NCBI GenBank assembly: GCA_048885925.1
Contig: JBHLLG010000053.1
Coordinates: forward strand, 1 to 20,041
From: Candidatus Hermodarchaeota archaeon
GTDB taxonomy: Archaea > Asgardarchaeota > Lokiarchaeia > Sigyniarchaeales > SOKP01
Direction of reading: 5' to 3'
Length of the DNA stretch: 20,041 bases
Shown one piece after another: positions 8-10,921 of the stretch. Within the stretch, counting starts at the first letter, position 1. Each line of letters starts with the position of its first letter. The position numbers and the translations under genes are program-made. The notes beneath the pieces were generated by a model. That model worked only from the letters and a program-made list of their open reading frames with translations, searched no databases and was not told where the DNA came from.

Positions 8-601
8 CTAAGCAATTTTTATTGAACTTGTAGATTTGTATATATCTAAAAAGTTTGATACATGAATTTGAGGTTTTATTCCATTTATTGTCTTAATTTT
101 TATATTTATAAAGTTCCAAAGCGATTTTTCATCTTTAGCAATGATTTGGGCGATAATATCATGATCTCCAGATGAAACCGCCACAAGTTGAGTCTCTTCA
201 AAAGTGGCAATCTTGCTTGCAATATCCTTCATTTTTAATGGATCAACAGATAAACCTATCAGAGCTATTGTGTTATAACCAATTTTCACAGGATCTACAA
301 TAGCTGCAAATTCTTTAATTATTTCTTCTTCAATCAGCTTTTTTACTCTATTATGAATAGTACTAGCTGCTAATTGTAGCTTATTTGCTAATTCTTGATA
401 TGAAACTTTATCATTTTTTTGTAATATATTCAAAATCCTTTTGTCTGTTTCATCTAAAGAATCACAATTCCAAGGACGATTTTGTCGATCATCATTAAAA
501 ATAACACCATGCTCGATTGAGAATCCCTCACATTCGTGATATATTTTTCTACCTAATGAGTATTCTTCACCACATTTAGGACAGGTAACTATTTTAATCA
601 A
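8..601 (-). CDS. Lrp/AsnC family transcriptional regulator with N-terminal Cys/His (CPKC...HEC) extension
   Basis: HTH region LDETDKRILNILQKNDKVSYQELANKLQLAASTIHNRVKKL followed by a RAM domain (VDPVKIG...SSGDHDII). About 48 extra N-terminal aa; TTG start. Confidence 0.9.
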   Translation of the reverse strand: MIKIVTCPKCGEEYSLGRKIYHECEGFSIEHGVIFNDDRQNRPWNCDSLDETDKRILNILQKNDKVSYQELANKLQLAASTIHNRVKKLIEEEIIKEFAAIVDPVKIGYNTIALIGLSVDPLKMKDIASKIATFEETQLVAVSSGDHDIIAQIIAKDEKSLWNFINIKIKTINGIKPQIHVSNFLDIYKSTSSIKIA

Positions 602-924: not shown

Positions 925-3054
925 TTAGACATTTGTAATTAGAATAAAACCCCAATTAATTATTCCGCCTATTAATAAAGCAATAACTATTTCTAAGAGA
1001 GAAATTTTTAAAGCAAACTCCCAATTTGTTTCCCTTGCTATAATGACTATCGTTGCAAAGCATGGAATATAAAGCATTGTTACTAAACAAAATACAATCA
1101 TTTGAAAAGGAGAAAATAAACCTAAAAGTGTGGTTCCCATGGAATTGGCTAATAATGCTAAAAGAACTAACGTTAATTCTTTCCTTAATATTCCATAAAT
1201 TAAAAAAATGCCAGTTATCGCTGGTAATCCCAACCAATAAACCGTGATTGGTATAAATAGAAAATTAATAGAATCCAATAATCGAAACATAAACAATAAC
1301 TCTAATAAGGCTCCTGATATTATTATTATAGGCATTGCTTTATAGATAAATTCTTTAGTTCTCATCCACGTTTGTTTAAAAATTACAGAATAATTCGGAA
1401 CACGATATTCATGCATCTCCATAATTAATTCAGTACATTCACCGGGTAAAATCTTATTCAATATTTTACCAATTAAAATGATTACTATAAAATTTATAAC
1501 AAATAATAGTAGAACCCATGTTATTCCGAGATATCGCCCCACTAAACCTAAAACAACAGTCATTACTGCTGCGCATGGAATCAATGAAGTTAATGCAATT
1601 GAAATTTTCTTTTCTCGTTCTGTTTCCATAATTCTGCATCCTGTGCAAGCAGGGACATTACATCCAAAGCCTAATATCATAGGGATTATAGTTTTTCCAT
1701 GAACACCAATAATATGCATAAATCGATCCATTAGATATGCCGCACGAGGTAGATAACCTGAATCCTGTAAAATTTCTATGATTAAAAAGAAAGGAACTAC
1801 ATAAACCAAAACACCACCTATTGCCCCAAAGATACCCCCCATAACTCCTTCCCAAAATACTTTAACTCCCCAATCATCCTTGGAGTAGAAATTATAAATA
1901 ACATTACTTAAATTTTCAAACACTTTTTCATTAATGCCTCCAAGGAAATCTCCAATAAAGAAAGTAAAAAAGTAAATGCCGATGAGAATTAAAACTAATA
2001 TTACATAACCCCAAAAAGAATGAGTTGTTAGATGATCTAATTTTTCAGCCCATTCTAATTTTATTTTGCCATAAGATTTAACGTTAAGAACTTGCTCAAT
2101 TATTTTATGAATATTTGTATAAATTTCTGAGGAAATAATTGTACTAATATCTTCTCCTTGCAATTCTTCTAGCTGATTTCGATATTTATAGGCTAAATCA
2201 AGTATATATGTTGTATTTTGGTTAATCTTGAATATTTTTTCAATTTCTTCATCATTTTCTAAAATCTTAATGGCTAAAAAACGTGAAGGATAATGGAATT
2301 TAGGAAAATAATGCGGATGTTTGTCAATATTTTTGATTAAGCTATTTAATTTACTTTCAACTTCTTTACCATATGTTAATATTGAAGATAAATCTGGAAA
2401 TAGAAAAGAATTTTTGAGAGTTGATTCTTCTCTTGGAGTTATATTGCAATGAGATAACTTTTCGTGAATTATTTTACCATTCTGATTATAATGTGAAGTT
2501 GATTTGTGATAAACTACTAATTCTATTGCTTCTTCAAGTAATTGATGAACACCTGTACCGTGCACAGCTATAACTGGAATAACTGGTAATTTAAAAAATT
2601 CTTCTAACTTTTCAAAATCTAACTTTAAATTTCTTTTTCTTAAAATATCCATCTGATTAATAGCTAATATCATTGGAATTTTAAGTTCTAATAATTGAAA
2701 AGTAAAGAATAAATTACGTTCAAGATTTATAGCATCAATTACATTTATAATAACATCAACATCTTCAGAAACTAAATGCTCTCTGCTAATTATTTCTTCT
2801 AGAGAATAAGTTGATAAGGAATAAATTCCAGGTAAATCGATAATATTGAATCGATACCCTAAAAAGTTTAGATGTCCTTCCATCTTTTCTACGGTTTTTC
2901 CAGGCCAATTCCCTATAGTTTGAGAAAGACCAGTAAGTTGATTGAAAATCACTGATTTACCAACATTTGCATTACCAGCTAAAGCTATATTGATAATTCC
3001 TATACTTTTTTTGTCTCTCCCATCTAGCTTACTCTTAAATTTTTTACTCTTCAT
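925..3054 (-). CDS. feoB: Ferrous iron transport protein B
   Basis: G1 [20 protein letters not shown] and NQMD motifs; membrane domain with [17 protein letters not shown] and LYIPCFAT. Confidence 0.97.
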
Positions 3055-3115
3055 ATATATTTTCCAAAAATCAAATTTTATTTAACAAAAAAAATATTAA
3101 ACAATTTTAGAATAA

Positions 3116-3397
3116 TTATTCAGATTTTTCAATTAATACAATTATCCTTGCTGCTAAACCTCTACCAATAACTAATAAAGATCCTTTCACTATAATTTCA
3201 ACCGGACCTCGAAAAGGAGCTGCTTGTTTTTTTATTATATTAACCCCAGGAATAATCCCTAAATTTGCAAGTCTTCTCTTAGCATGATAACCGGCACGCA
3301 CTCTCAATACCTTAAGCTCTTCTCCTATTGGGCAGTCAACCAAATTTGTTATTAACGGTGAGACTTTTTTTCTCTTTTGGATTAAATTTTCAGACAT
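3116..3397 (-). CDS. feoA: Ferrous iron transport protein A
   Basis: RRLANLGIIPG...APFRGPV...IGRGLA FeoA (SH3-like) signature, directly upstream of feoB. Confidence 0.95.
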   Translation of the reverse strand: MSENLIQKRKKVSPLITNLVDCPIGEELKVLRVRAGYHAKRRLANLGIIPGVNIIKKQAAPFRGPVEIIVKGSLLVIGRGLAARIIVLIEKSE

Positions 3398-3418
3398 GGG
3401 TACCTTGAAAAAATTTTA

Positions 3419-3439
3419 TGAGAAAAAACTTTTTTCTCA
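3419..3439. promoter_or_regulatory. 21-bp palindrome TGAGAAAAAA-C-TTTTTTCTCA in the feoA leader
   Basis: Perfect 10-bp arms with a 1-nt centre, lying between the putative TATA box (3461-3468) and the feoA start. Confidence 0.45.
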
Positions 3440-3460
3440 ATTAAAATATATATTTAATTC

Positions 3461-3486
3461 TATTTAAACTTATTAGTTATACCTAA
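3461..3486 (-). promoter_or_regulatory. feoAB promoter: DtxR/SirR-type box TTAGGTATAACTAA (3473-3486) plus TATA TTTAAATA (3461-3468)
   Basis: Near-perfect TTAGG-N4-CCTAA palindrome (1 mismatch), 4 nt upstream of a TATA box. A DtxR-family gene lies 0.7 kb away. Confidence 0.7.
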
Positions 3487-3606
3487 AATAAAAAGCTTTT
3501 TCTTGCACATTTTTATCATCGTTATTGAATTAATGATATTTAACATCACTATAAAATAATATTATTATTTTAATTATCAATAATCCAACTTTGGTTTTCA
3601 AATTCT

Positions 3607-3625
3607 TCTAATATGATATATGTGA
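3607..3625 (+). repeat. 19-bp direct repeat copy 2 (TCTAATATGATATATGTGA)
   Basis: Identical to 705-723. Confidence 0.85.
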
Positions 3626-3677
3626 GTTATTGAATTCTTATTAGATATATAATTTTTTAAAAAAATTTTGGTTTTTA

Positions 3678-3691
3678 TGAATATATATTCA
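3678..3691. promoter_or_regulatory. Palindromic operator TGAATATATATTCA (site 1)
   Basis: Perfect 14-bp palindrome, 5 nt before CTTAAATA (3697-3704), upstream of DUF5320. Confidence 0.75.
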
Positions 3692-3738
3692 CAATACTTA
3701 AATAGTTAGTTTGATATTAATATAATAGAAAGTAATAA

Positions 3739-3752
3739 TGAATAATTATTCA
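3739..3752. promoter_or_regulatory. Palindromic operator TGAATAATTATTCA (site 2)
   Basis: Perfect palindrome, 61 bp after site 1 and 27 nt before the DUF5320 ATG. Confidence 0.75.
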
Positions 3753-3779
3753 GAAAAAAAATATTGAAGGTAATAAAAT

Positions 3780-4148
3780 ATGCCAAGTGGAGACAGAACT
3801 GGACCAGGAGGATTAGGACCAATGACAGGTAGAGCTTTAGGATATTGCGCAGGTTATGATACGCCAGGATTTACAAAAGGTCCTGGATGGGAATTTGGAT
3901 GTGGTTGGGGACGCGGTAGAGGTTGGTGGCGCGGTAGAGGGATAGGATATGGTAAAGGTTGGGGTTGGGGCTATTCAATTCCCGTTTATACCCCCTATAC
4001 TCTTGGAATTGCACCACAAATTACATCAGAAAGCCAATTATCAATGCTAAAGGAAGAGAAAAGTTATTTGGAATCAGAAATGAATGGCATCAAGAACGCA
4101 TTAGAAGATATATCTAAAAGAATTGGTGAATTAGAAAAAGAAGAATAA
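3780..4148 (+). CDS. DUF5320 family protein (Gly/Arg/Trp-rich, C-terminal coiled coil)
   Basis: N-terminal MPSGDRTGPGGLGPMTGRALGYCAG signature, GRGRG repeats and a heptad-repeat C-terminus. Confidence 0.88.
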   Translation: MPSGDRTGPGGLGPMTGRALGYCAGYDTPGFTKGPGWEFGCGWGRGRGWWRGRGIGYGKGWGWGYSIPVYTPYTLGIAPQITSESQLSMLKEEKSYLESEMNGIKNALEDISKRIGELEKEE

Positions 4149-4173
4149 TTTTTTTTATTTTTTTTTAATTTTT
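4149..4173 (+). terminator. Oligo-T tract after DUF5320 (archaeal intrinsic terminator-like)
   Basis: Consecutive long T runs immediately after the stop codon. Confidence 0.4.
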
Positions 4174-4190
4174 GAAAGGTAGATATCTAA

Positions 4191-4571
4191 ATGTGGAAAG
4201 TTCATGAAAGTTATGAAAATTATTTAAAAGCAATATATTTAATTTCAAAAACAAACAAAGGTGGATGGGTATCCAATTCTGGGATTTCAGATTTCTTACA
4301 AGTTAAACCACCTTCAGTAACCAATATGTTATATAAATTAAAAGCAGAAGAATTAATAGACTGGAAACCAAGAAAATCTTTACGTTTAACTAAAAAAGGA
4401 AAAAAAATAGCTCAAGATATATTTAGGAGCTATAAGAATCTATGTGATTTTTTTAGGAATGTTTTAAAATTAGAAAATAATAATTTGGTAAAAAAACTAT
4501 CTTGTGAAATAGAGCATCATTTAACTCCAGAAGTATCTCATGCTTTAAAAGAGCTCCTTCTTGAATATTAA
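4191..4571 (+). CDS. DtxR/MntR family metal-dependent transcriptional repressor (short form, no C-terminal FeoA/SH3 domain)
   Basis: ENYLKAIY, VKPPSVTNML, LRLTKKG and SCEIEHHL motifs. Confidence 0.93.
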   Translation: MWKVHESYENYLKAIYLISKTNKGGWVSNSGISDFLQVKPPSVTNMLYKLKAEELIDWKPRKSLRLTKKGKKIAQDIFRSYKNLCDFFRNVLKLENNNLVKKLSCEIEHHLTPEVSHALKELLLEY

Positions 4572-4597
4572 AAGAATTAACATTTTTATTTATAACT

Positions 4598-5041
4598 TTA
4601 AAAAGTATTTTTCATCTTGTATTCTTCAATTACACGTTTTATTGTTCTTACTGCTAATTCAGCACAATGTCTATGATCTTCAGGTAAACCTCCTAAAGCA
4701 TTCTCAATGTCAATTGGTTGTAAATTTTCAGCATATTCTAATGTTTGCCCTTCAATCAACATTGTAGTTTGACTTCCTGCTGCTACTGTAGCACCACATC
4801 CATCAGTAATAAAATTTGCTTTTTCAATTATACCCTCTCTGATCTTTAGAAAGAATTGCATGGTATCACCACAAGGTCCTTCATAAGCGTGCCATGCACT
4901 TATTTCTTCATCTTTTAATTTGCCCCAATTTTTTGGATTTTGAAGTAGTTCTACAATATATTTATTATATCTCTTAATTTCCTCTTCAATAATTTCTTTC
5001 TGAATTTCCTCTACCCATTTTTCTAAATTATCGTCAGGCAT
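4598..5041 (-). CDS. iscU: NifU/IscU-type Fe-S cluster scaffold protein
   Basis: NPKNWG, GPCGD, DGCGA and HCAELA: the three conserved U-type scaffold cysteines. Confidence 0.9.
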   Translation of the reverse strand: MPDDNLEKWVEEIQKEIIEEEIKRYNKYIVELLQNPKNWGKLKDEEISAWHAYEGPCGDTMQFFLKIREGIIEKANFITDGCGATVAAGSQTTMLIEGQTLEYAENLQPIDIENALGGLPEDHRHCAELAVRTIKRVIEEYKMKNTF

Positions 5042-5092
5042 CTTTTATAAATTTGATAAGATTTTTGATAAGGTAATTCAAAAAATTTAGAT

Positions 5093-5962
5093 TTATTTTT
5101 CCAAAAACCCTCGAATCTTCTTAACTGTTTCTCTAAAAGCTTTAGTTGACTTACTATCAGGATACTTTAATACAAAGGGTAATCCTTTATCTCCTTGTTG
5201 ACCTACTTCTATCTCAAAAGGTATTTTACCTAATAATTGAACAACGAAATCCTGAGCTGCTTTTTCTGCTCCGCCTGGAGGATAAAGATCAATATATACT
5301 CCACAATTGGGACAATTAAAACCTGATTGATTTTCTATAATTCCTAAAATTTTTCTTTCCATTATTTGAGCCATTTTTATAGTTTTCCGAGCATCCATTA
5401 AAGCCACTTCCTGAGGGGTTGTAACTATAACTACATTTTCATCTGGTATAAGCTGCAAAATATCTAAAGTCTCATCACTCGTGCCCGGAGGTAAATCGCA
5501 TATTAAATAATCTAATTCACCCCAAATGGCCTCACCTAAAAATTGTCTTACTGCACTCATTTTCATCGGACCCCTCCAAATAACGGGTGAGTCTGAACTC
5601 TCAATAAGAAATGCCATACTCATTACTTTGAGATTTAAAGGTCCATTAACGGGATAAAATTTTTTAGCCCCAGGATCAACTCGCGGTTTTAATTCTGGAT
5701 TTACTCCTAGCATTTTAAGAACGTTTGGTCCTGTTATATCAACATCTAGAATTCCTACTCTTAAGCCAAAACTAACTAAACTCATTGCAAGATTAACTGC
5801 AACTGTTGTTTTTCCTACGCCTCCCTTACCCGATATAACAACGATTTTGTATTTGATATGTTTCATATTCTCTTTAATGTCGATCATTAATTTATCCATC
5901 TGCTTTTCCTTTTCTTGCTGAATTGTCTCCTTTAAATCTATATCTGGAATCTCTTCGCTAAT
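5093..5962 (-). CDS. mrp: Mrp/ApbC/NBP35 Fe-S cluster carrier ATPase (first ATG at 5899; probable ATT start at 5962)
   Basis: SGKGGVGKT, DVDITGP, IWRGP, DLPPGT, TTPQ and CPNC motifs. The frame stays open upstream to 5968, with GAGGT 8 nt before an ATT. Confidence 0.93.
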   Translation of the reverse strand: MSEEIPDIDLKETIQQEKEKQMDKLMIDIKENMKHIKYKIVVISGKGGVGKTTVAVNLAMSLVSFGLRVGILDVDITGPNVLKMLGVNPELKPRVDPGAKKFYPVNGPLNLKVMSMAFLIESSDSPVIWRGPMKMSAVRQFLGEAIWGELDYLICDLPPGTSDETLDILQLIPDENVVIVTTPQEVALMDARKTIKMAQIMERKILGIIENQSGFNCPNCGVYIDLYPPGGAEKAAQDFVVQLLGKIPFEIEVGQQGDKGLPFVLKYPDSKSTKAFRETVKKIRGFLEK

Positions 5963-6026
5963 ATTTTTCTACCTCTTAATTTTTATTGGTTAAATTTATA
6001 AAGTTACTAAATGTTTACTAATTATG

Positions 6027-6048
6027 ATAATGAATAATTATTCATTAT
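6027..6048. promoter_or_regulatory. Palindromic operator (site 3), core TGAATAATTATTCA 6031-6044, extended 22-bp perfect palindrome
   Basis: ATAATGAATAATTATTCATTAT, between the divergent mrp and NifX/ATPase genes. Confidence 0.78.
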
Positions 6049-6080
6049 AAAAACTTACGAATTGATAATTAAAAAAAGTA

Positions 6081-6512
6081 ATGTTAAAAAATATGGTTAT
6101 TGTAGCAATTCCTTCAATGGGAAAAGGTGGTTTAAATGATTTCTTAAGTCCACGATTTGGAAGATGTCCTAGTTTTACATTTGTCGAAATAGATAATAAG
6201 GAGATAACTGCAGTAAAAACAGTCCCAAACCATGCAACTAGTGCTATGGGTGGAGCTGGTGTGCAAGCAACTCAAATAATTGGTAATAATAATGCAGAAG
6301 TTGCAATTTTAGGGTTTCTAGGACCTAATGCGGCTAATGGACTTAAAGCTTTGAATATAAAACTTTTTCACGCACCAGATAAACAAATAACAGTAAAAGA
6401 AGTATTAGATCTTTTTATTGAAGGTAAATTAGAAGAGATGTCTAACTCAAGTGTGGCTTCACATTATGGAATGGGTGGTGGTCGGGGGAGAGGAGGATTT
6501 AATCATCCTTAA
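6081..6512 (+). CDS. NifB/NifX (dinitrogenase FeMo-cofactor biosynthesis) family protein, Orp-like
   Basis: VAIPS...SPRFGRCPSF...GGAG...GFLGPNA motifs and a Gly-rich tail. The start may be ATG 6093. Confidence 0.88.
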   Translation: MLKNMVIVAIPSMGKGGLNDFLSPRFGRCPSFTFVEIDNKEITAVKTVPNHATSAMGGAGVQATQIIGNNNAEVAILGFLGPNAANGLKALNIKLFHAPDKQITVKEVLDLFIEGKLEEMSNSSVASHYGMGGGRGRGGFNHP

Positions 6513-6542
6513 AAAAATAGATAGTAAATTAATTTAAATCTC

Positions 6543-7466
6543 ATGAGTAAGAGAAAACCTCACATAATTTGCATTACCGGTGGAAAAGGTGGAACAGGAA
6601 AAACTCTCTGTGCTGTCAATATTGCAGTTATGTTTAAAAATGACGGGTATAAAGTGCTACTTATTGATGGAGATGTAGAAAATCCTAATACTTATTTACT
6701 TTTAAATGGAAAATTAGAAAATAAACAAGAAGTCTCATTTTTCAAACCAAAAATCTTTGAAAATAAATGTACTAAGTGTGGTATTTGTGCTCAAAATTGT
6801 TTATCTAATGCGATTTTACATGTAAAAGAAGCATTTCCTATTCCTATATTAACAGTTTGCTCGGGTTGTCGACTATGCTATAAGATTTGTCCCGAAAAAG
6901 CAATTGAAGCGGATACAAAAATGATTGGTTGGACATTCACTACAGAAATTAATGGATTATCACTAATACTTGGAGAATTAAAGCCTTCAGAAGCTAGATC
7001 AGCTACAATTGTTGATGCTCTTCTTGATAATCTCAAAAAGATTCAAGAAAATAATCTGGAAAACTTTGAAATTATTATCTTAGATACTGCTCCAGGTGCA
7101 CATTGTGATGTGGAACTTTTAATTGATGCAGCAGATGTAGCAATTCCCATTACTGAACCAACTAAATTCGGTAAATTGGATTTAATTAGAATAATGGATT
7201 TGATTAAGTTGTTAGGGAAAGATTCTCAAGTGATAGTAAATAGATCTTCATTATTAGGTTTTAGACAACAATTTTTAAAGGAACTAGAGGAAGAAAATAT
7301 AAAAATTTTAGGTGATATCCCGTTAGATTCTGATATTGTAGATTCTTACTGCTTAGGGACTCCAATCATGGATAAGAACAGTGTATATAATAAAGAGGGT
7401 GCGGGTTATAGAGCGTTCACAACAATTTATGAAAATTTAAAAAAATGGATAAAAATAACTCAATGA
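6543..7466 (+). CDS. MinD-superfamily P-loop ATPase with inserted 2x[4Fe-4S] ferredoxin domain
   Basis: GGKGGTGKT, DGDVENPN, CTKCGICAQNC, CSGCRLCYKIC, DTAPGAHC and TEPT motifs. Confidence 0.92.
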   Translation: MSKRKPHIICITGGKGGTGKTLCAVNIAVMFKNDGYKVLLIDGDVENPNTYLLLNGKLENKQEVSFFKPKIFENKCTKCGICAQNCLSNAILHVKEAFPIPILTVCSGCRLCYKICPEKAIEADTKMIGWTFTTEINGLSLILGELKPSEARSATIVDALLDNLKKIQENNLENFEIIILDTAPGAHCDVELLIDAADVAIPITEPTKFGKLDLIRIMDLIKLLGKDSQVIVNRSSLLGFRQQFLKELEEENIKILGDIPLDSDIVDSYCLGTPIMDKNSVYNKEGAGYRAFTTIYENLKKWIKITQ

Positions 7467-7488
7467 CATATAAAAAGAGTATAAATAT

Positions 7489-8421
7489 ATGAAAAGAAAA
7501 ATAGTAGGTGTTGTTTCGGGCAAAGGGGGAGTGGGTAAAACCACATTAACGGCATCATTGGCGAGTCTTGCTTATAAAGATTTAACGACACAAGTTATCG
7601 TAATGGATTGCGATGTTGATGCTCCAAATTTAGCAATTATTCTTCCTCCTAAAGATGATTCTACAATAAAAAAAGAAGATACATTTACAACAAGAAAAGC
7701 GGAGTTTATAGAAGATCAATGTATTAATTGTAAGCAATGTGTTGATGATCATTTCTGTGAATTTAATGCATTAAAATGGAATAGCCAAAATTCAATTCCC
7801 ACAATTGATTTCTTAAAATGTGAAGGTTGTGGAGCTTGTAAGGTTTTATGCCCAGAACACGCATTTGAAATACATCCCGTAAAGAGTGGAGAAATTATTT
7901 CATACAATAATATTATGGGATTTCCTTTAATTTATGGAAAAACGCAATTAGGAAGCACAACATCTGGAAAGTTAGTATCAGATGTTAAAGATTATTTAAC
8001 CAATATTATGGAATTTGACAAAAGTAATTTAATATTGATTGATGGACCTCCAGGAATTGGATGTCCTGTAATTGCAACTATCTCGAATTTAGATTATGTA
8101 ATTACTATTAGTGAACCTACTCCATCTGGTTTACATGATTTAATACGTATAATAGAAGTAATTCAACAATTTAATATCCTATTTGGATTGATAATAAATA
8201 AATCAGATTTAAAAAGTCCTTTTCAGAAAGATTTTAAGCAATATATTAATGAAACAGGATATAATATATTAGGGAGAATTCCTTTCAATCTAGCTATCCC
8301 AGAAGCTATGTCTTTTGCTAAACCTGTTGTAGATTTTGATCCAAATTCAAAAGCAAGTTTAGCTATTAATAAAATTTACGAAAATTTAAAACTTAATTTA
8401 TGGAATAATTCTTTAATTTGA
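7489..8421 (+). CDS. MinD-superfamily P-loop ATPase with inserted 2x[4Fe-4S] ferredoxin domain (second paralog)
   Basis: SGKGGVGKT, DCDVDAPN, CINCKQCVDDHFC, CEGCGACKVLC, DGPPGIGC and EPTPSGLHDL motifs. Confidence 0.92.
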   Translation: MKRKIVGVVSGKGGVGKTTLTASLASLAYKDLTTQVIVMDCDVDAPNLAIILPPKDDSTIKKEDTFTTRKAEFIEDQCINCKQCVDDHFCEFNALKWNSQNSIPTIDFLKCEGCGACKVLCPEHAFEIHPVKSGEIISYNNIMGFPLIYGKTQLGSTTSGKLVSDVKDYLTNIMEFDKSNLILIDGPPGIGCPVIATISNLDYVITISEPTPSGLHDLIRIIEVIQQFNILFGLIINKSDLKSPFQKDFKQYINETGYNILGRIPFNLAIPEAMSFAKPVVDFDPNSKASLAINKIYENLKLNLWNNSLI

Positions 8422-8443
8422 TCTTTAAATTTAAAAAAAGGAC

Positions 8444-8863
8444 TTAAATAAATTCTTTAATAAGATGATAAACGTTATTAGAATTGCATTTAATACAATT
8501 CACCTTTTTTTCTTTTGATGCAGTAGGATCTTCCCATTCATGATTACAATCTTGACATCCATATCCCACAAAACTTCTTCTATAATCTACATCACCTCCA
8601 TATACTCTAATTGGCTTACCCTCAATTAAAGCTACTGTATTTTTTCGATGTGCCTCTTCAAGGATTCTAGAGAATGTTGGTTGACTAATTCCCATTTTTT
8701 CAGCTGCATCTTTTTGATTTAAACCAATATAATGCTTAAGTCGCATAGCCTCAAATTCTGCTATTGTTAAAATAACGGTGTCTTCAGCCGTGGGAGGTTG
8801 ATGTGCAAAATAGAGATTTTTTGGTGTATGGTATACCCATCTTCGACCTCTTCTTCTTCCTAT
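8444..8863 (-). CDS. DUF134 (UPF0251) HTH DNA-binding protein with C-terminal Zn ribbon; probable ATA start at 8863
   Basis: Extending the track ORF upstream gives (M)GRRRGRRWV...LTIAEFEAMRLKHYIGLNQKDAAEKMGISQPTFSRIL, then CQDC...CIKC. GGTGA lies 6 nt before the ATA. Confidence 0.9.
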   Translation of the reverse strand: MGRRRGRRWVYHTPKNLYFAHQPPTAEDTVILTIAEFEAMRLKHYIGLNQKDAAEKMGISQPTFSRILEEAHRKNTVALIEGKPIRVYGGDVDYRRSFVGYGCQDCNHEWEDPTASKEKKVNCIKCNSNNVYHLIKEFI

Positions 8864-8974
8864 ATTGAATCACCAAAAAATCATTTCTTTTTTAAATTTT
8901 AATTATTAAATATTCAAATTCATTATAAAAGGTTTTTTAGATAAATAAATTAATAATTCATAAAAAATGTATTT

Positions 8975-8988
8975 TGAATAATTATTCA
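8975..8988. promoter_or_regulatory. Palindromic operator TGAATAATTATTCA (site 4)
   Basis: Perfect palindrome (16 bp with flanks), between the divergent DUF134 and NifX genes, 5 nt before TTTAAAT (8994-9000). Confidence 0.78.
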
Positions 8989-9035
8989 ATACATTTAAAT
9001 TTTATAGAATCTTATGATGTCTAGGTGAATAAAAA

Positions 9036-9446
9036 TTGAAAGTTGCAATTAGTTCAGATTCAGGAAAAGTCTATCCTCACTTTGGTCGATCTCCAGAGTT
9101 TACATTTATTACAATTGAAAATAATAAAGTATTGGAAAAAAAAATACTTAAAAATCCTGGACATGAAGTAGGGAGTATACCTAAATTTATAAATGAACAA
9201 GGAGCAAAATGGATGATTGCAGGAGGTATGGGGCGAAGAGCAATAGAATTTTTCACACAATATGGAATTGAAGTAATTATGGGAATTACTGGTAAAATTG
9301 ATGATGTCATCAAAAAGATATTAGATGGAACTCTTGAGGGAGGAGAAAGCCTCTGTACACCTGGTGGAGGTAAAGGGTATGGAGTTGAGAAGATTCATAC
9401 AGATGCAGATGACGCTCATAAACATCATCATTTTCATGATCAATAA
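9036..9446 (+). CDS. NifB/NifX family protein with His-rich C-terminal tail
   Basis: KVAISS...PHFGRSPEF...NPGH...IAGGMGRRA motifs; tail HKHHHFHD; TTG start preceded by GGTGA. Confidence 0.9.
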   Translation: MKVAISSDSGKVYPHFGRSPEFTFITIENNKVLEKKILKNPGHEVGSIPKFINEQGAKWMIAGGMGRRAIEFFTQYGIEVIMGITGKIDDVIKKILDGTLEGGESLCTPGGGKGYGVEKIHTDADDAHKHHHFHDQ

Positions 9447-9514
9447 ATCTTATTGAACTTCAAGTTCACTCGAAAGTGATAATTAAGATACAAAAAAAAA
9501 GATTTAATAAGTTT

Positions 9515-10024
9515 TTACTTTCGAATTTGTACTTTTGGGGTAATTTTAGAAGCTCCACCGAAGTTAGTAATAACAGGACAATGGGTAAACACTTTATCCA
9601 TTAATTGGTTTATTTTTTCTTCTGGAGCATCGGCTTTTATTCTTATAACAGGTTCAAGATTATCGTAACCAGCTAACTTGTTATCATTAATACCAAAAAT
9701 TGCTCCTAAATTTATGTGTCCACGTGAGAAAACTTTCAATTCTTTAATTTTTATCTCCATTATTTTGGCCCAAAATTTAGTAACAGCAATAATACAAGCT
9801 CCGATTGAGGATAGTATCACTAGTAAAGGAGAGGGTCCTTTATTTGTTCCATCCAATCCCCCAGGGGCATCAATAAGGAGTTCAAAAGGGTCTCCTCCTG
9901 GATTACCCATAATACATTTAACTTGCATCCCTTCGGAAAGCATTTCACATTCTATATTGAAATTTTTTTCACCAGCTTTCCAGTCTTTCTTGATGGCTTC
10001 ATACGTTTCTTTAAAACTAGGCAT
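9515..10024 (-). CDS. OsmC/Ohr family protein
   Basis: GGLDGTNKGPSP...SIGAC and HCPV: the two conserved Cys of the OsmC fold. Confidence 0.88.
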   Translation of the reverse strand: MPSFKETYEAIKKDWKAGEKNFNIECEMLSEGMQVKCIMGNPGGDPFELLIDAPGGLDGTNKGPSPLLVILSSIGACIIAVTKFWAKIMEIKIKELKVFSRGHINLGAIFGINDNKLAGYDNLEPVIRIKADAPEEKINQLMDKVFTHCPVITNFGGASKITPKVQIRK

Positions 10025-10068
10025 TTAATCTCATCTAACCTAAATTTATTTTTTTATATTATTTTATT

Positions 10069-10449
10069 TTAAAGAGTGTGAGCATGATTAGAGTGATTTT
10101 CACAGCTCGGATCAACCAATGATCTTAACTTTTTCTCAATAAATAATATTATATTTTCTTTAATGCTTGTATTTACACCTTGATGTAAGTTTATATTAAC
10201 CTGTTGAAAACCCATAAATGGACGCATTCCTATGCCTGTTAGAATCATATCCGTTACATTTCTTTCTTTCATATTCATAACAGGTTCCATGCACCCTATA
10301 TGATCTTCATTCGGTAATGTAAATATCTTTTTAAATTGATTGCCATTATAAAGTTCAACTCCAATGAAGTATCTACAATGACCAAAATGAGGTGATATAT
10401 TATCTGATAATTCTGTACCATCAGAAGGAATTCCAATTATTCTATTCAT
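10069..10449 (-). CDS. NifB/NifX family protein (third paralog; ATG 10449 preferred over TTG 10473)
   Basis: IIGIPS...SPHFGHCRYF...HIGC...GIGMRP motifs; Cys/His tail SCENHSNHAH. Confidence 0.87.
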   Translation of the reverse strand: MNRIIGIPSDGTELSDNISPHFGHCRYFIGVELYNGNQFKKIFTLPNEDHIGCMEPVMNMKERNVTDMILTGIGMRPFMGFQQVNINLHQGVNTSIKENIILFIEKKLRSLVDPSCENHSNHAHTL

Positions 10450-10521
10450 TGTTCTCACTCTTATTATTTTCAAAATTTTTATATTATTTTATAAAAAATT
10501 ATTCATGATATATATATATTT

Positions 10522-10535
10522 TGAATGATCATTCA
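10522..10535. promoter_or_regulatory. Palindromic operator TGAATGATCATTCA (site 5)
   Basis: Perfect palindrome, 5 nt before CTTAAAT (10541-10547). Confidence 0.75.
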
Positions 10536-10581
10536 TAATACTTAAATTCAATATCAATATCTATAACATAATAAATAGTAA

Positions 10582-10595
10582 TGGATAATTATTCA
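10582..10595. promoter_or_regulatory. Operator TGGATAATTATTCA (site 6, one mismatch)
   Basis: 60 bp after site 5, followed by GAA as site 2 is. Confidence 0.65.
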
Positions 10596-10626
10596 GAATT
10601 ATTAATCAAATGAGAACATAGAGAAA

Positions 10627-10818
10627 ATGAAGAGTTATAAACAAATAATAAAAGATGATAATTTCAATATAAAGGATGAATATCTTGTTGATACCAAGTT
10701 ATTTAAGATGTGTTGGGGATGTGAAATTAAATATAAGAAAGGTCATATGGTTTGGAATACTTCCAAAATGCGAAGAATTTTTTTTTGCGATGATTGCTTT
10801 GCAAAATTAAAGAAATAA
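10627..10818 (+). CDS. Small hypothetical Cys4 metal-binding protein (CWGC...CDDC)
   Basis: 63-aa ORF with two CxxC pairs, its own promoter-like region and a T-rich tract downstream. Confidence 0.65.
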   Translation: MKSYKQIIKDDNFNIKDEYLVDTKLFKMCWGCEIKYKKGHMVWNTSKMRRIFFCDDCFAKLKK

Positions 10819-10921
10819 CTTTCTAATTTTTTTCCTTTATTTTTTTAAAATTAAATTGAAGTTAGAATTACCATAACATTAAAAAAGATATAATCGAAAA
10901 AGTAAGTTTAAAATCTATTTT

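What the first reader, a model, noticed from the sequence alone, without database searches (positions are those of the whole stretch)
3678..10595. Six-copy palindromic operator TGAAT-N4-ATTCA defines a candidate new regulon, probably of the DUF134 Zn-ribbon regulator
Seen: 14-bp palindromes at 3678, 3739, 6031, 8975 and 10522 (perfect) and 10582 (1 mismatch). All are intergenic, and they cover each divergent promoter region of the Fe-S/NifX cluster. I saw none in the 10.9-20 kb half. The central 4 nt vary while staying palindromic (ATAT, AATT, GATC), which fits a dimeric protein site better than AT-rich noise. Three sites end exactly 5 nt before a YTTAAAT TATA box. Inference: DUF134 is the best candidate, because it has an HTH plus a Cys4 ribbon, sits in the cluster and has a site in its own upstream region. 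The Lrp and DtxR genes have distinct candidate boxes of their own. I know of no established DUF134 operator or signal in archaea.
Basis: partly seen in the sequence, partly recalled or inferred. Interest (0 to 1): 0.85.

Follow-up and report, generated by a model that had tools for sequence, protein, structure and literature searches.

The report
Conserved DNA operator of DUF134 regulators
A short palindromic DNA word placed at the promoters of an iron-sulfur protein gene cluster in an Asgard archaeon is very probably the binding site of an uncharacterised regulator family (DUF134), and the same word sits next to DUF134 genes across archaea and some bacteria.

Summary
TGAAT-N4-ATTCA is perfect at 3678, 3739, 6031, 8975 and 10522, and has one mismatch at 10582. 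That is 5 exact copies against 0.18 expected. The whole 3.9-Mb genome holds only 20 exact copies, and the 5 with a palindromic centre all lie in this window.

- The sites keep their positions in 10 syntenic Asgard loci.
- In two other Asgard families, the single genome-wide copy of TGAATATATATTCA lies 7-18 nt from the DUF134 match in 20 of 20 genomes.
- 80 diverse DUF134 loci hold 58 exact sites against 1.1 expected.
- A blind scan of 185,579 species for a tandem site gave 80 listed loci. 67 of them have DUF5320 and/or DUF134 within 1.5 kb.
- The closest solved helix-turn-helix, B. subtilis DeoR, binds TGAA-N6-TTCA, the same geometry.
- The DtxR-like gene has its own box upstream of feoA.

The most likely mechanism is a dimeric, autoregulating DUF134 repressor of an ORP-like Fe-S cluster. 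The signal it senses is unknown.

The parts
3678..3691 (.). Operator O1a, TGAATATATATTCA. It ends 5 nt before the CTTAAAT TATA-like box (3697-3703) of the DUF5320-DtxR operon.
   Evidence: A perfect pair is conserved upstream of DUF5320 in 5 of 5 orthologous loci.
3739..3752 (.). Operator O1b, TGAATAATTATTCA. It starts 61 nt after O1a and ends 27 nt before the DUF5320 ATG. By inference it lies downstream of the transcription start.
   Evidence: Spacing is 60-62 nt in the orthologues.
6031..6044 (.). Operator O2 between the divergent Mrp-NifU and NifX-MinD-MinD operons. It abuts the TTATAAAA box on the NifX side.
   Evidence: It is perfect in 7 of 7 orthologous loci that hold both genes, and also in L009.
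8975..8988 (.). Operator O3. It ends 5 nt before the TTTAAAT box of the NifX gene at 9036 and lies 111 nt upstream of the divergent DUF134 start.
   Evidence: It is perfect in 8 of 9 orthologous loci and has one mismatch in the ninth.
10522..10535 (.). Operator O4a, TGAATGATCATTCA. It ends 5 nt before the CTTAAAT box of the 63-aa zinc-ribbon gene and lies 48 nt upstream of the divergent NifX gene (start 10473).
   Evidence: All 5 of 5 orthologous loci that hold the 63-aa gene have at least one perfect site there.
10582..10595 (.). Operator O4b, TGGATAATTATTCA (1 mismatch). It starts 60 nt after O4a and ends 31 nt before the ATG of the 63-aa gene.
   Evidence: A partner site 62 nt away is present in L001, L006, L007 and L010.
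8444..8863 (-). DUF134 gene (139 aa). It has a sigma-70-region-4-like helix-turn-helix (recognition helix SQPTFSRIL) and a C-terminal Cys4 ribbon. It is the proposed operator-binding protein. It starts at ATA behind a GGTGAT ribosome-binding site.
   Evidence: PF02001 at 75.4 bits against a cut-off of 27. It is the only DUF134 in the genome. Start codon. Model.
3780..4148 (+). DUF5320 gene (122 aa). It has the invariant N-terminal motif MPxxDxTGPxGxGxxTGRGxGxC, an Arg/Gly-rich stretch and a C-terminal predicted coiled coil. It is the first gene behind the double operator.
   Evidence: PF17253 at 85.2 bits. Alignment A3. It is the gene most often found directly behind the operator elsewhere.
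4191..4571 (+). DtxR/MntR-like regulator (126 aa), second gene of the DUF5320 operon. It is a rival binder, judged unlikely.
   Evidence: PF01325 and PF02742. MntR-like below the cut-off.
3473..3486 (.). Separate conserved box TTAGTTATACCTAA, 75 nt upstream of feoA. It is the candidate DtxR-family operator.
   Evidence: It is conserved in L001, L005 and L010, and in L003 with one change. The genome holds only 2 exact copies. The other is 60 nt upstream of an FTR1-like (REGLE-motif, by eye) membrane protein on C21.
4598..5899 (-). Mrp/NBP35 (MrpORP-like, 5093-5899) and NifU_N scaffold (4598-5041) operon, divergent from O2.
   Evidence: NF041136 MrpORP at 317 bits, below the 450 cut-off.
6081..8421 (+). 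NifX-like gene (6081-6512) followed by two P-loop ATPases that carry 4Fe-4S ferredoxin inserts (6543-7466, 7489-8421). They resemble Orp8 and Orp3/Orp4.
   Evidence: ORP composition: passages of PMC6345978.
9036..9446 (+). Second NifX-like gene (TTG start), target of O3.
   Evidence: PF02579.
9515..10473 (-). Third NifX-like gene (10069-10473) and an OsmC-like gene (9515-10024), divergent from O4a.
   Evidence: Orthologues have a site followed by a TATA-like box upstream of this NifX gene.
10627..10818 (+). 63-aa protein with two CxxC pairs and no family match. It is a target of O4a/O4b.
   Evidence: It is conserved in L001, L002, L006, L007 and L010.

Best explanation
The palindromes are operators for the DUF134 protein encoded at 8444-8863. 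The 14-bp core is TGAAT-N4-ATTCA and the extended consensus is about TTA-TGAAT-AWWT-ATTCA-TAA.

What the sequence shows: the sites stand directly upstream of the TATA-like boxes of four promoters. Those promoters serve DUF5320-DtxR, NifX-MinD-MinD, NifX and the 63-aa gene. At two of them a second site lies 60-61 nt downstream, six helical turns away, between the promoter and the start codon.

What I infer:
- A DUF134 dimer puts one recognition helix (SQPTFSR) on each TGAA/TTCA half-site.
- Binding at the BRE/TATA edge, and at the downstream site, hinders TFB/TBP and RNA polymerase. DUF134 would therefore repress the ORP-like Fe-S/metallocluster genes and its own gene.
- Repression is lifted or set by a signal that I could not identify. 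It may be a metal, Fe-S or redox state, sensed through the Cys4 ribbon or through the co-conserved DUF5320 protein.

The same module of operator, DUF5320 and DUF134 recurs across Asgard, DPANN and methanogenic archaea and in some CPR and Babeliales bacteria.
For: 1. Local excess: 5 exact sites against 0.18 expected. The genome has 20 exact sites, 5 of them here.

2. Footprint: in 10 syntenic Asgard loci whose proteins are 54-92% identical, the site is kept at each promoter. Counts: DUF5320 pair in 5 of 5 loci, NifX|Mrp in 7 of 7, NifX|DUF134 in 8 of 9 plus one with a mismatch, and the 63-aa gene in 5 of 5. The flanks differ between loci.

3. DUF134 outside the cluster: L011, L016 and L021 have a perfect site 31-45 nt before the DUF134 start, with no DtxR in the locus.

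4. From motif to gene, within the phylum: exact TGAATATATATTCA occurs once per genome in 16 of 19 genomes of family f12 and 4 of 6 of f19. All 20 copies lie 7-18 nt from the DUF134 match. Of 20 regions fetched around exact TGAATAATTATTCA hits in families f5, f2 and f22, 14 lie at DUF134/NifX/MinD operons that have no DtxR or Lrp beside them.

5. 80 diverse DUF134 loci (446 kb) hold 58 exact sites in 44 loci. Block shuffles give 1.13 (largest 5), the reversed pattern gives 1 and the everted pattern gives 0.

6. Blind global scan for a tandem site: 82 stretches matched and 80 were listed and examined. DUF5320 and/or DUF134 lie within 1.5 kb in 67 of them (DUF5320 in 66, DUF134 in 53). No other recurrent regulator family was seen.

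7. Structure: no DUF134 structure is solved. The best PDB relative is the DNA-binding domain of B. subtilis DeoR (E 7e-6; rmsd 0.7 A over 41 columns at 39% identity). Its operator half, ATTGAACAAAATTTCAAT, is TGAA-N6-TTCA, the same geometry as here (PMC11229326, passages).

8. Helix and half-site: of 188 DUF134 ORFs with an S-Q helix, 107 have TGAAT-N4-ATTCA within 600 nt upstream and none has TGAAC-N4-GTTCA. The one ORF with an S-R-P helix (L149) has TGAAC-N4-GTTCA, as does DeoR, which also has S-R-P.

9. DtxR has a separate box.
Against: - No binding or expression data exist. No RNA run was listed.
- Loci L052-L131 were fetched by DUF134 homology, so DUF134 is present there by construction. 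Only points 4 and 6 escape that bias.
- 36 of those 80 DUF134 loci hold no exact site. None of the 9 Saccharibacteria loci do, and 5 of the 7 Archaeoglobaceae/Archaeoglobales loci do not.
- 9 Asgard DUF134 loci (L012-L015, L017-L020, L022) have no exact site, and 4 of them were shown to have the same recognition helix.
- In Asgard family f7, DUF134 is present in 38 of 43 genomes, yet both exact 14-mers are found in 0 of 43. Only some f7 loci show variant palindromes.
- In the blind scan DUF5320 is nearer to the operator, and more often present, than DUF134 (66 against 53 of 80).
- Repression rather than activation is inferred from position only. A site just upstream of BRE/TATA could also serve an activator.
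- TATA boxes and transcription starts are read by eye and are not mapped.
- The helix/half-site covariation rests on one S-R-P example.
Confidence: 0.82

Rival explanations
1. DUF5320 is the sequence-specific binder, or an obligatory co-binder, and DUF134 has another role. DUF5320 is Arg/Gly-rich with a predicted coiled coil.
For: DUF5320 is the gene directly behind the operator in most loci of the blind scan (66 of 80, against 53 for DUF134). Its N-terminal motif is invariant. One protein (L090) joins that motif to DUF134 (Pfam sees only DUF134 there).
Against: - DUF5320 has no recognisable DNA-reading fold (Pfam finds only DUF5320; NCBIfam finds nothing).
- Arg/Gly-rich tails usually bind nucleic acid without sequence specificity (general knowledge).
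- Many operator-bearing loci have DUF134 directly behind the site and no DUF5320 called nearby: families f12 and f19, most of the f5 operons, Methanobrevibacter, and L011/L016/L021.
- The DeoR analogy fits DUF134.
Confidence: 0.07
2. The DtxR/MntR-like protein (4191-4571) binds the palindrome and autoregulates. Its gene lies in the operon behind the double site.
For: The gene is the second in an operon preceded by two perfect sites, and this holds in 5 of 5 orthologous loci. The cluster lies beside feoAB.
Against: - A different conserved box, TTAGTTATACCTAA, lies upstream of feoA. Its only other exact copy in the genome lies upstream of an FTR1-like gene (by eye), which fits an iron-responsive DtxR box.
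- The palindrome occurs at DUF134 loci with no DtxR homologue beside them: f5 operons, diverse loci, and 79 of 80 loci of the blind scan (only L172 shows a DtxR hit).
- As I recall them, known DtxR operators are about 19-bp TWAGG-type palindromes. I did not test this here.
Confidence: 0.04
3. The Lrp/AsnC protein with an N-terminal zinc ribbon (8-601) binds the palindrome.
For: The gene is kept near the cluster in L010 and L002. As I recall, archaeal Lrp-family proteins bind AT-centred palindromes of the form TGAAA...TTTCA. My literature search for this returned only unrelated papers.
Against: - There is no site with up to 1 mismatch upstream of the Lrp gene in the window, L002 or L010.
- No Lrp homologue is found beside the operator in the f5 operons or in any of the 80 blind-scan loci.
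- The recalled Lrp sites have a 5-3-5 layout, not 5-4-5.
Confidence: 0.03
4. An unlinked factor binds the sites (for example an ArsR/SmtB-type metal sensor, whose 12-2-12 operators I recall as TGAA...TTCA-like). Alternatively the palindrome is a promoter element, a repeat or AT-rich noise.
For: The genome is 29% G+C, so AT-rich words are common. Operator resemblances recalled from memory exist.
Against: - Shuffles and reversed or everted controls rule out noise.
- The word is found in loci of 44-55% G+C.
- It is tied to one gene family across phyla.
- There is no Rfam match in the window.
- No other regulator family recurs near the sites.
Confidence: 0.03

Closest known systems
B. subtilis DeoR (SorC family) DNA-binding domain on its operator (PDB 7bhy, 8r7y)
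   Same: It is the closest solved relative of the DUF134 helix-turn-helix (profile E 7e-6; Foldseek rmsd 0.7 A over 41 columns at 39% identity). The recognition helices are alike: ISRPTVSRLL in DeoR and ISQPTFSRIL in DUF134. A DeoR dimer binds the palindrome ATTGAACAAAATTTCAAT, which is TGAA-N6-TTCA, the same half-site and spacing as TGAAT-N4-ATTCA (PMC11229326, passages).
   Different: DeoR carries a large SorC effector domain, works as a tetramer on a 39-bp operator and senses deoxyribose-5-phosphate. DUF134 has 92-218 residues, has no such domain and has a Cys4 ribbon in this lineage.
OrpR and the orp operons of Desulfovibrio vulgaris
   Same: The gene content is alike: two P-loop proteins with 4Fe-4S motifs (Orp3/4), Di-Nase/NifX-like proteins (Orp8) and an Mrp/NBP35 carrier (Orp9/MrpORP). 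The genes lie in divergent operons under one dedicated local regulator (PMC6345978 and PMC8359166, passages; Pfam and NCBIfam).
   Different: OrpR is a sigma-54 enhancer-binding activator that senses redox through a PAS-bound [4Fe-4S] cluster. The authors say it is restricted to delta-proteobacteria. Here the regulator is a small helix-turn-helix protein, the sites sit at archaeal TATA boxes, and the likely action is repression.
Sigma-70 region 4 / ECF sigma factors
   Same: The helix-turn-helix has the same fold (Foldseek rmsd 0.5-0.8 A over 43-50 columns with SigD, SigC, SigF and SigR region 4). There are weak Pfam and NCBIfam hits.
   Different: DUF134 has no region 2. The sites are palindromes, not -35 hexamers. 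DUF134 is present in archaea, which have no sigma factors (general knowledge).
Archaeal repressors that act at BRE/TATA and downstream of the start (NrpR, MDR1 and similar; recalled)
   Same: They also use palindromic operators, sometimes two per promoter, overlapping or flanking the core promoter. They also autoregulate.
   Different: The protein families and motifs are different. This comparison is from memory and was not tested here.

Membership tests
DUF134 / UPF0251 (PF02001) | Match to the family profile above the curated cut-off | tested here: met
   75.4 bits against a cut-off of 27, residues 2-93. Whole-genome search: one match, 76.3 bits.
DUF134 / UPF0251 (PF02001) | Known function or known operator for the family | tested here: not met
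   Whole-word searches for DUF134, UPF0251, COG1342 and PF02001 found 4 papers. I read passages of 2, and both only list the name. The other 2 I saw as search listings only, and their titles are off-topic. The two 14-mers as text found only an unrelated paper. The PDB has no DUF134 chain.
SorC/DeoR repressors | N-terminal sigma-70-r4-like helix-turn-helix that reads TGAA half-sites | tested here: met
   NF053881 hit on residues 38-78 only, 22.9 bits against a cut-off of 420.
SorC/DeoR repressors | C-terminal SorC sugar-phosphate effector domain | tested here: not met
   The protein has 139 aa. Pfam shows only DUF134 plus weak helix-turn-helix and zinc-ribbon hits. It is not a member.
DtxR-family operator | The site lies at metal-uptake genes and differs from other local motifs | tested here: not met
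   feoA carries TTAGTTATACCTAA instead. The TGAAT palindrome is absent from the feoA promoter region (sequences).
ORP (orange protein) gene cluster | Orp3/Orp4-like P-loop proteins with two 4Fe-4S motifs | tested here: met
   6543-7466 and 7489-8421: CbiA/ParA plus Fer4 families.
ORP (orange protein) gene cluster | Orp8-like Di-Nase (PF02579) protein | tested here: met
   Three copies: 6081-6512, 9036-9446 and 10069-10473.
ORP (orange protein) gene cluster | MrpORP: Mrp/NBP35 domain fused to a Di-Nase domain | tested here: inconclusive
   NF041136 at 317 bits, below the 450 cut-off. [quoted passage not shown]
ORP (orange protein) gene cluster | Sigma-54 promoter and an OrpR activator | not tested
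   No OrpR-like gene was noted among the window's ORFs scanned with Pfam. Archaea lack sigma-54 (general knowledge). I made no dedicated search.

The most novel reading that the evidence does not exclude
DUF134 and DUF5320 form an ancient two-gene regulatory module. Its operator, TGAAT-AWWT-ATTCA, has stayed almost unchanged across Asgard, DPANN, methanogenic and other archaea and in CPR and Babeliales bacteria.

In this reading the module is the missing regulator of ORP-like Fe-S/metallocluster genes and of linked metal transporters (ZIP, CDF, ArsP-like) in organisms that lack OrpR. DUF5320 would act as the sensor or co-regulator that sets DUF134's DNA binding.
Probability: 0.4. Interest if true: 0.85.

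Novelty: new member of a known kind. Interest (0 to 1): 0.74.

Why it matters
DUF134 is a widespread protein family. It was found in 153 of 201 sampled genomes of this phylum, and in methanogens, DPANN archaea and CPR bacteria. My searches found no assigned function, operator or structure for it.

A defined 14-20 bp operator makes the family directly testable by gel shift, DAP-seq or deletion. It also lets regulons be read from sequence in uncultured lineages, Asgard archaea among them.

The finding also proposes how ORP-like Fe-S gene clusters are controlled outside the delta-proteobacteria. The OrpR authors describe OrpR as restricted to delta-proteobacteria and suggest an archaeal origin for the ORP system (PMC8359166, passages).

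The mechanism itself, a helix-turn-helix dimer on a palindrome at the promoter, is classical.

Tried and rejected
- **Complex prediction** of DUF134 (alignment A2) with DUF5320 (A3): no verdict, score 0.00, controls not run. This is neither for nor against binding.
- **The look-up of sequencing runs**, kind rna, for 3300-10900: no RNA holder was listed. Read laying was therefore not used and transcription starts remain unmapped.
- **Literature for the Lrp (FL11) consensus** returned only unrelated FL118 papers, so that motif stays a recollection.
- **The first orp paper** (PMC3133258) is not held.
The supplementary tables of the DeoR and MrpORP papers might bear on base contacts and on gene-cluster distribution.
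- **Foldseek** on the whole DUF134 model gave no match at E <= 0.001. Only the helix-turn-helix part aligns well.
- **Other genomic near-matches** with one mismatch and a palindromic centre (for example C19:7670 and C24:8995) showed no shared function. I dropped them as probable chance.
- **Sites at 3109 and 9026**: no counterpart with up to 1 mismatch was seen in the orthologues. I rejected them as operators.
- **Genomes of the same family without a DUF134 match** (G049, G077, G153, G195) do not discriminate between the candidates:
  - G049 lacks close orthologues of the MinD-type ATPase and the DtxR-like gene as well, so the cluster appears absent.
  - G153 has no close orthologue of that ATPase.
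  - G195 does hold a 60%-identical orthologue of that ATPase, on a small contig.
  - G077 holds the DtxR orthologue, with an exact site beside it, on a small contig.
- **Rfam**: 0 matches in the window.

Full report
**1. Observation**

The pattern TGAAT-N4-ATTCA is exact at 3678, 3739, 6031, 8975 and 10522, and has one mismatch at 10582. Five exact copies compare with a mean of 0.18 in 100 dinucleotide-preserving shuffles (largest 2). With up to one mismatch there are 10 copies against 3.98.

The four extra one-mismatch matches are:
- 2229, inside feoB.
- 3109, at the feoA/feoB junction.
- 9026, over the ribosome-binding site and TTG start of the NifX gene at 9036.
- 11615, inside an ORF.

Neither 3109 nor 9026 has a counterpart with up to one mismatch in the orthologous loci, so I do not count them as operators.

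Sites 3678, 8975 and 10522 each end 5 nt before CTTAAAT or TTTAAAT (read). Site 6031 abuts TTATAAAA. Sites 3739 and 10582 start 61 and 60 nt downstream of their partners, and end 27 and 31 nt before the start codons of the DUF5320 gene and the 63-aa gene.

**2. The genome**

The window is contig C53 of a 3.9-Mb, 29% G+C assembly of 181 contigs, 95% complete. Relatives are named Promethearchaeota, that is Asgard archaea.

The whole genome holds 20 exact matches, 5 of them in this 7-kb stretch. A crude ORF mask puts 11 of the 20 in coding sequence. The five whose centre is itself a palindrome are all the window's. Near-matches elsewhere share no theme. In this genome the 'regulon' is therefore this cluster.

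**3. Genes**

| Coordinates | Strand | Gene |
|---|---|---|
| 8-601 | - | Lrp/AsnC with an N-terminal zinc ribbon |
| 925-3054 | - | FeoB |
| 3116-3397 | - | FeoA |
| 3780-4148 | + | DUF5320 |
| 4191-4571 | + | short DtxR/MntR-like regulator |
| 4598-5041 | - | NifU_N |
| 5093-5899 | - | Mrp/NBP35 (MrpORP model, 317 bits, below the 450 cut-off) |
| 6081-6512 | + | NifX-like |
| 6543-7466, 7489-8421 | + | two P-loop ATPases with 4Fe-4S inserts |
| 8444-8863 | - | DUF134 |
| 9036-9446 | + | NifX-like |
| 9515-10024 | - | OsmC-like |
| 10069-10473 | - | NifX-like |
| 10627-10818 | + | 63-aa protein with two CxxC pairs |

This content matches the ORP (orange protein) cluster of Desulfovibrio. There, Orp3/4 are P-loop proteins with two 4Fe-4S motifs, Orp8 is a Di-Nase protein and Orp9 is MrpORP (PMC6345978, passages). 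That cluster is driven by the sigma-54 activator OrpR, an Fe-S redox sensor. Its authors describe OrpR as restricted to delta-proteobacteria, and they suggest the ORP system may have come from Archaea (PMC8359166, passages).

**4. Conservation in close relatives**

A search with DUF134 gave 27 loci. Ten of them (L001-L010) are syntenic, with proteins 54-92% identical to the window's. The palindrome is kept at every promoter:
- Two perfect sites 60-61 nt apart upstream of DUF5320-DtxR in 5 of 5 loci.
- One perfect site between NifX and Mrp in 7 of 7 loci that hold both genes, and also in L009.
- One perfect site between NifX and DUF134 in 8 of 9 loci, with one mismatch in the ninth.
- At least one perfect site upstream of the 63-aa gene in 5 of 5 loci, with a second site 62 nt away in 4 of them.

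The sequence around the sites differs between loci. With flanks, the consensus is about TTA-TGAAT-AWWT-ATTCA-TAA.

**5. Which protein binds?**

There are three local candidates: DUF134, the DtxR-like protein and Lrp. The evidence favours DUF134.

(a) In L011, L016 and L021, DUF134 lies outside the cluster. It still has a perfect site 31-45 nt before its start, and the locus holds no DtxR.

(b) In another family of the phylum (f5), the operon is DUF134-NifX-NifX-MinD-MinD. An exact TGAATAATTATTCA lies shortly upstream of DUF134 (42 nt in L032, 37 nt in L040, for example), and no DtxR or Lrp is adjacent. Of 20 regions fetched around exact hits, 14 are at such clusters. One closed 3.1-Mb genome (G026) has only two exact copies, and one of them is 52 nt from DUF134.

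(c) In families f12 and f19, exact TGAATATATATTCA occurs once per genome in 16 of 19 and 4 of 6 genomes. All 20 copies lie 7-18 nt from the DUF134 match. The reversed control word occurs in 8 of 201 genomes. For the AATT form the control occurs in 4 of 201.

(d) 80 diverse DUF134 loci come from Archaeoglobus, Methanobrevibacter, ANME-1, Methanoregulaceae, DPANN archaea, CPR bacteria and Babeliales. They hold 58 exact sites in 44 loci, against 1.13 expected, and 42 of the 58 have the centre ATAT. Loci of 44-55% G+C are among them. The usual layout is one site, or a tandem pair 22-24 nt apart, followed by DUF5320 and then DUF134. Alternatives are site then DUF134, or site, NifX, DUF134.

(e) These loci were chosen by DUF134 homology, so I also ran the reverse test. 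I scanned 185,579 species for TGAATATATATTCA-N8-11-TGAAT-N4-ATTCA. This gave 82 stretches, of which 80 were listed and examined.
- 67 have DUF5320 and/or DUF134 within 1.5 kb: DUF5320 in 66, DUF134 in 53, both in 52.
- Of the 13 without either, 9 lie within 600 nt of the edge of the stored piece. The other 4 come from one MAG that carries at least eight such tandems.
- No other regulator family recurs near the sites. The recurrent neighbours are an ArsP-type permease, NifX, a DsbD-like protein and ZIP transporters.

(f) The DtxR-like protein has its own candidate box. TTAGTTATACCTAA at 3473-3486, 75 nt upstream of feoA, is kept in L001, L005 and L010, and in L003 with one change. Its only other exact copy in the genome is 60 nt upstream of a membrane protein that I read by eye as FTR1-like from its REGLE motif.

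**6. Structural analogy**

No DUF134 structure is solved. A profile of DUF134 finds the DNA-binding domain of B. subtilis DeoR best (7bhy_A, E 7e-6). The AlphaFold model has mean pLDDT 76, above 88 over the helix-turn-helix. Its helix-turn-helix superposes on DeoR's domain at 0.7 A over 41 columns with 39% identity, and on sigma-70 region 4 domains.

DeoR's helix ISRPTVSRLL resembles DUF134's ISQPTFSRIL. A DeoR dimer binds ATTGAACAAAATTTCAAT (PMC11229326, passages). That is TGAA-N6-TTCA, exactly the frame of TGAAT-N4-ATTCA.

Among 209 DUF134 ORFs in all loci fetched up:
- 188 have S-Q at the start of the helix. 107 of these have TGAAT-N4-ATTCA within 600 nt upstream, and none has TGAAC-N4-GTTCA.
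- The single S-R-P protein (L149) has TGAAC-N4-GTTCA, like DeoR.
- Seven with a different helix (SRGTIWR) have neither.
- Family f22 (helix SQS) shows mixed TGAAT/TGCAT half-sites.

This is what direct read-out by DUF134 would predict, but the S-R-P case is a single example.

**7. Mechanism**

Shown: the positions of the sites relative to TATA-like boxes and start codons, their conservation, and their link to DUF134 and DUF5320.

Inferred:
- DUF134 binds as a dimer.
- It represses. The grounds are that sites overlap the BRE/TATA edge. A second site lies between promoter and start codon at two promoters. In other lineages the site lies 4-12 nt before the DUF134 start codon or over the likely TATA of leaderless genes.
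- It autoregulates.

A site just upstream of BRE/TATA could also serve an activator, and I cannot exclude that.

The signal is unknown. The Cys4 ribbon is present in this lineage but absent in the 92-114 aa forms. Neighbouring genes elsewhere point to metal or Fe-S homeostasis: ZIP, CDF (once fused to a NifX domain), FeoAB, NifU and Mrp.

**8. Results against, or unexplained**

- 36 of the 80 diverse DUF134 loci have no exact site. None of the 9 Saccharibacteria loci do, and 5 of the 7 Archaeoglobaceae/Archaeoglobales loci do not.
- Nine Asgard DUF134 loci have none, and 4 of these were shown to have the same helix.
- Family f7 has DUF134 in 38 of 43 genomes but neither exact 14-mer in any of the 43. 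Of 14 f7 loci fetched, 2 have an exact variant palindrome, 3 have a one-mismatch variant and 9 have none with up to one mismatch.
- DUF5320 is linked to the operator at least as tightly as DUF134.
- The complex prediction gave no verdict.
- No RNA data could be found.

**9. Novelty**

- Whole-word searches for DUF134, UPF0251, COG1342 and PF02001 found 4 papers. I read passages of 2, and both only list the name. The other 2 I saw as search listings only.
- A search for DUF5320 found 2 papers. I read a passage of one, which only lists the name. The other I saw as a search listing only.
- The two 14-mers as text found one unrelated paper.
- These searches cover only the held open-access library. 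Subscription papers and regulon databases were not searched, and supplements were closed.

Within those limits, the operator and the function of DUF134 appear to be undescribed. The kind of system, a helix-turn-helix regulator on a palindromic operator, is classical.

Noticed in passing
window 8861-8863 (- strand); L001, L002, L004-L007, L009, L010: The DUF134 reading frame has no ATG, GTG or TTG after the upstream stop. It begins at ATA, 4-6 nt behind a conserved GGTGAT. ATA is kept in 9 of 11 orthologues (window included), and L003 and L008 have ATG. This looks like a conserved non-canonical start codon on the regulator gene, not an error.
   Followed up: partly
window 3473-3486; G000 C21:18912: TTAGTTATACCTAA is a second conserved box. 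It lies 75 nt upstream of feoA. Its only other exact copy in the genome lies 60 nt upstream of a membrane protein that I read by eye as FTR1-like (REGLE motif). It is a candidate iron-responsive DtxR-family operator.
   Followed up: partly
L090:2947-3288: A Woesearchaeota protein joins the invariant N-terminal DUF5320 motif (MPxGDGTGPxGxGPxTG) directly to a DUF134 domain. This natural fusion links the two families (Pfam finds DUF134 only).
   Followed up: partly
L189, L191, L204, L207, L210, L222, L224 (one MAG): One archaeal MAG carries at least eight tandem operators on several contigs, upstream of varied genes including a ZIP transporter. The regulon may be much larger there.
   Followed up: partly
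L066:3486-4679: In an Archaeoglobus MAG, the gene after DUF134 is a cation-efflux (CDF) transporter fused to a NifX-type (PF02579) domain. This ties NifX-like domains to metal transport.
   Followed up: no
L149; L234-L237; L144, L145: Operator variants seem to follow helix variants:
- S-R-P helix with TGAAC-N4-GTTCA (L149).
- S-Q-S helix with TGCAT/TGAAT half-sites in tandem (L235-L237).
- SRGTIWR helix with TGTGC-N4-GCACA upstream (L144, L145).

   Followed up: partly
window 10627-10818; L001, L002, L006, L007, L010: A 63-aa protein with two CxxC pairs and no family match is conserved and sits behind a double operator.
   Followed up: no
L004:4408-4483 and 4512-7923: In one relative, a double operator precedes a 782-aa prismane/CO-dehydrogenase-family protein and a radical SAM protein, in place of DUF5320-DtxR. 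A similar radical SAM gene lies 178 nt from an exact site in L051.
   Followed up: no
L208:115-152: A Sulfurimonas contig has a tandem operator just upstream of genes that look like the small and large subunits of a [NiFe] hydrogenase (by eye, from their N-terminal sequences). No DUF134 or DUF5320 is in the stored piece, and the site is near the edge of that piece.
   Followed up: no
window 8-601: The Lrp/AsnC regulator carries an extra N-terminal CxxC...C-rich segment of about 45 residues before its helix-turn-helix. The gene follows feoB here and in L010.
   Followed up: no
L068:2917-3552 and related Methanobrevibacter loci: Methanobrevibacter DUF134 proteins are about 210 aa long and have a HypA-like zinc-ribbon region (below the Pfam cut-off). 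They have a perfect site plus a one-mismatch site 17 nt apart, 80-100 nt upstream, and are followed by a 536-aa double ABC ATPase.
   Followed up: no
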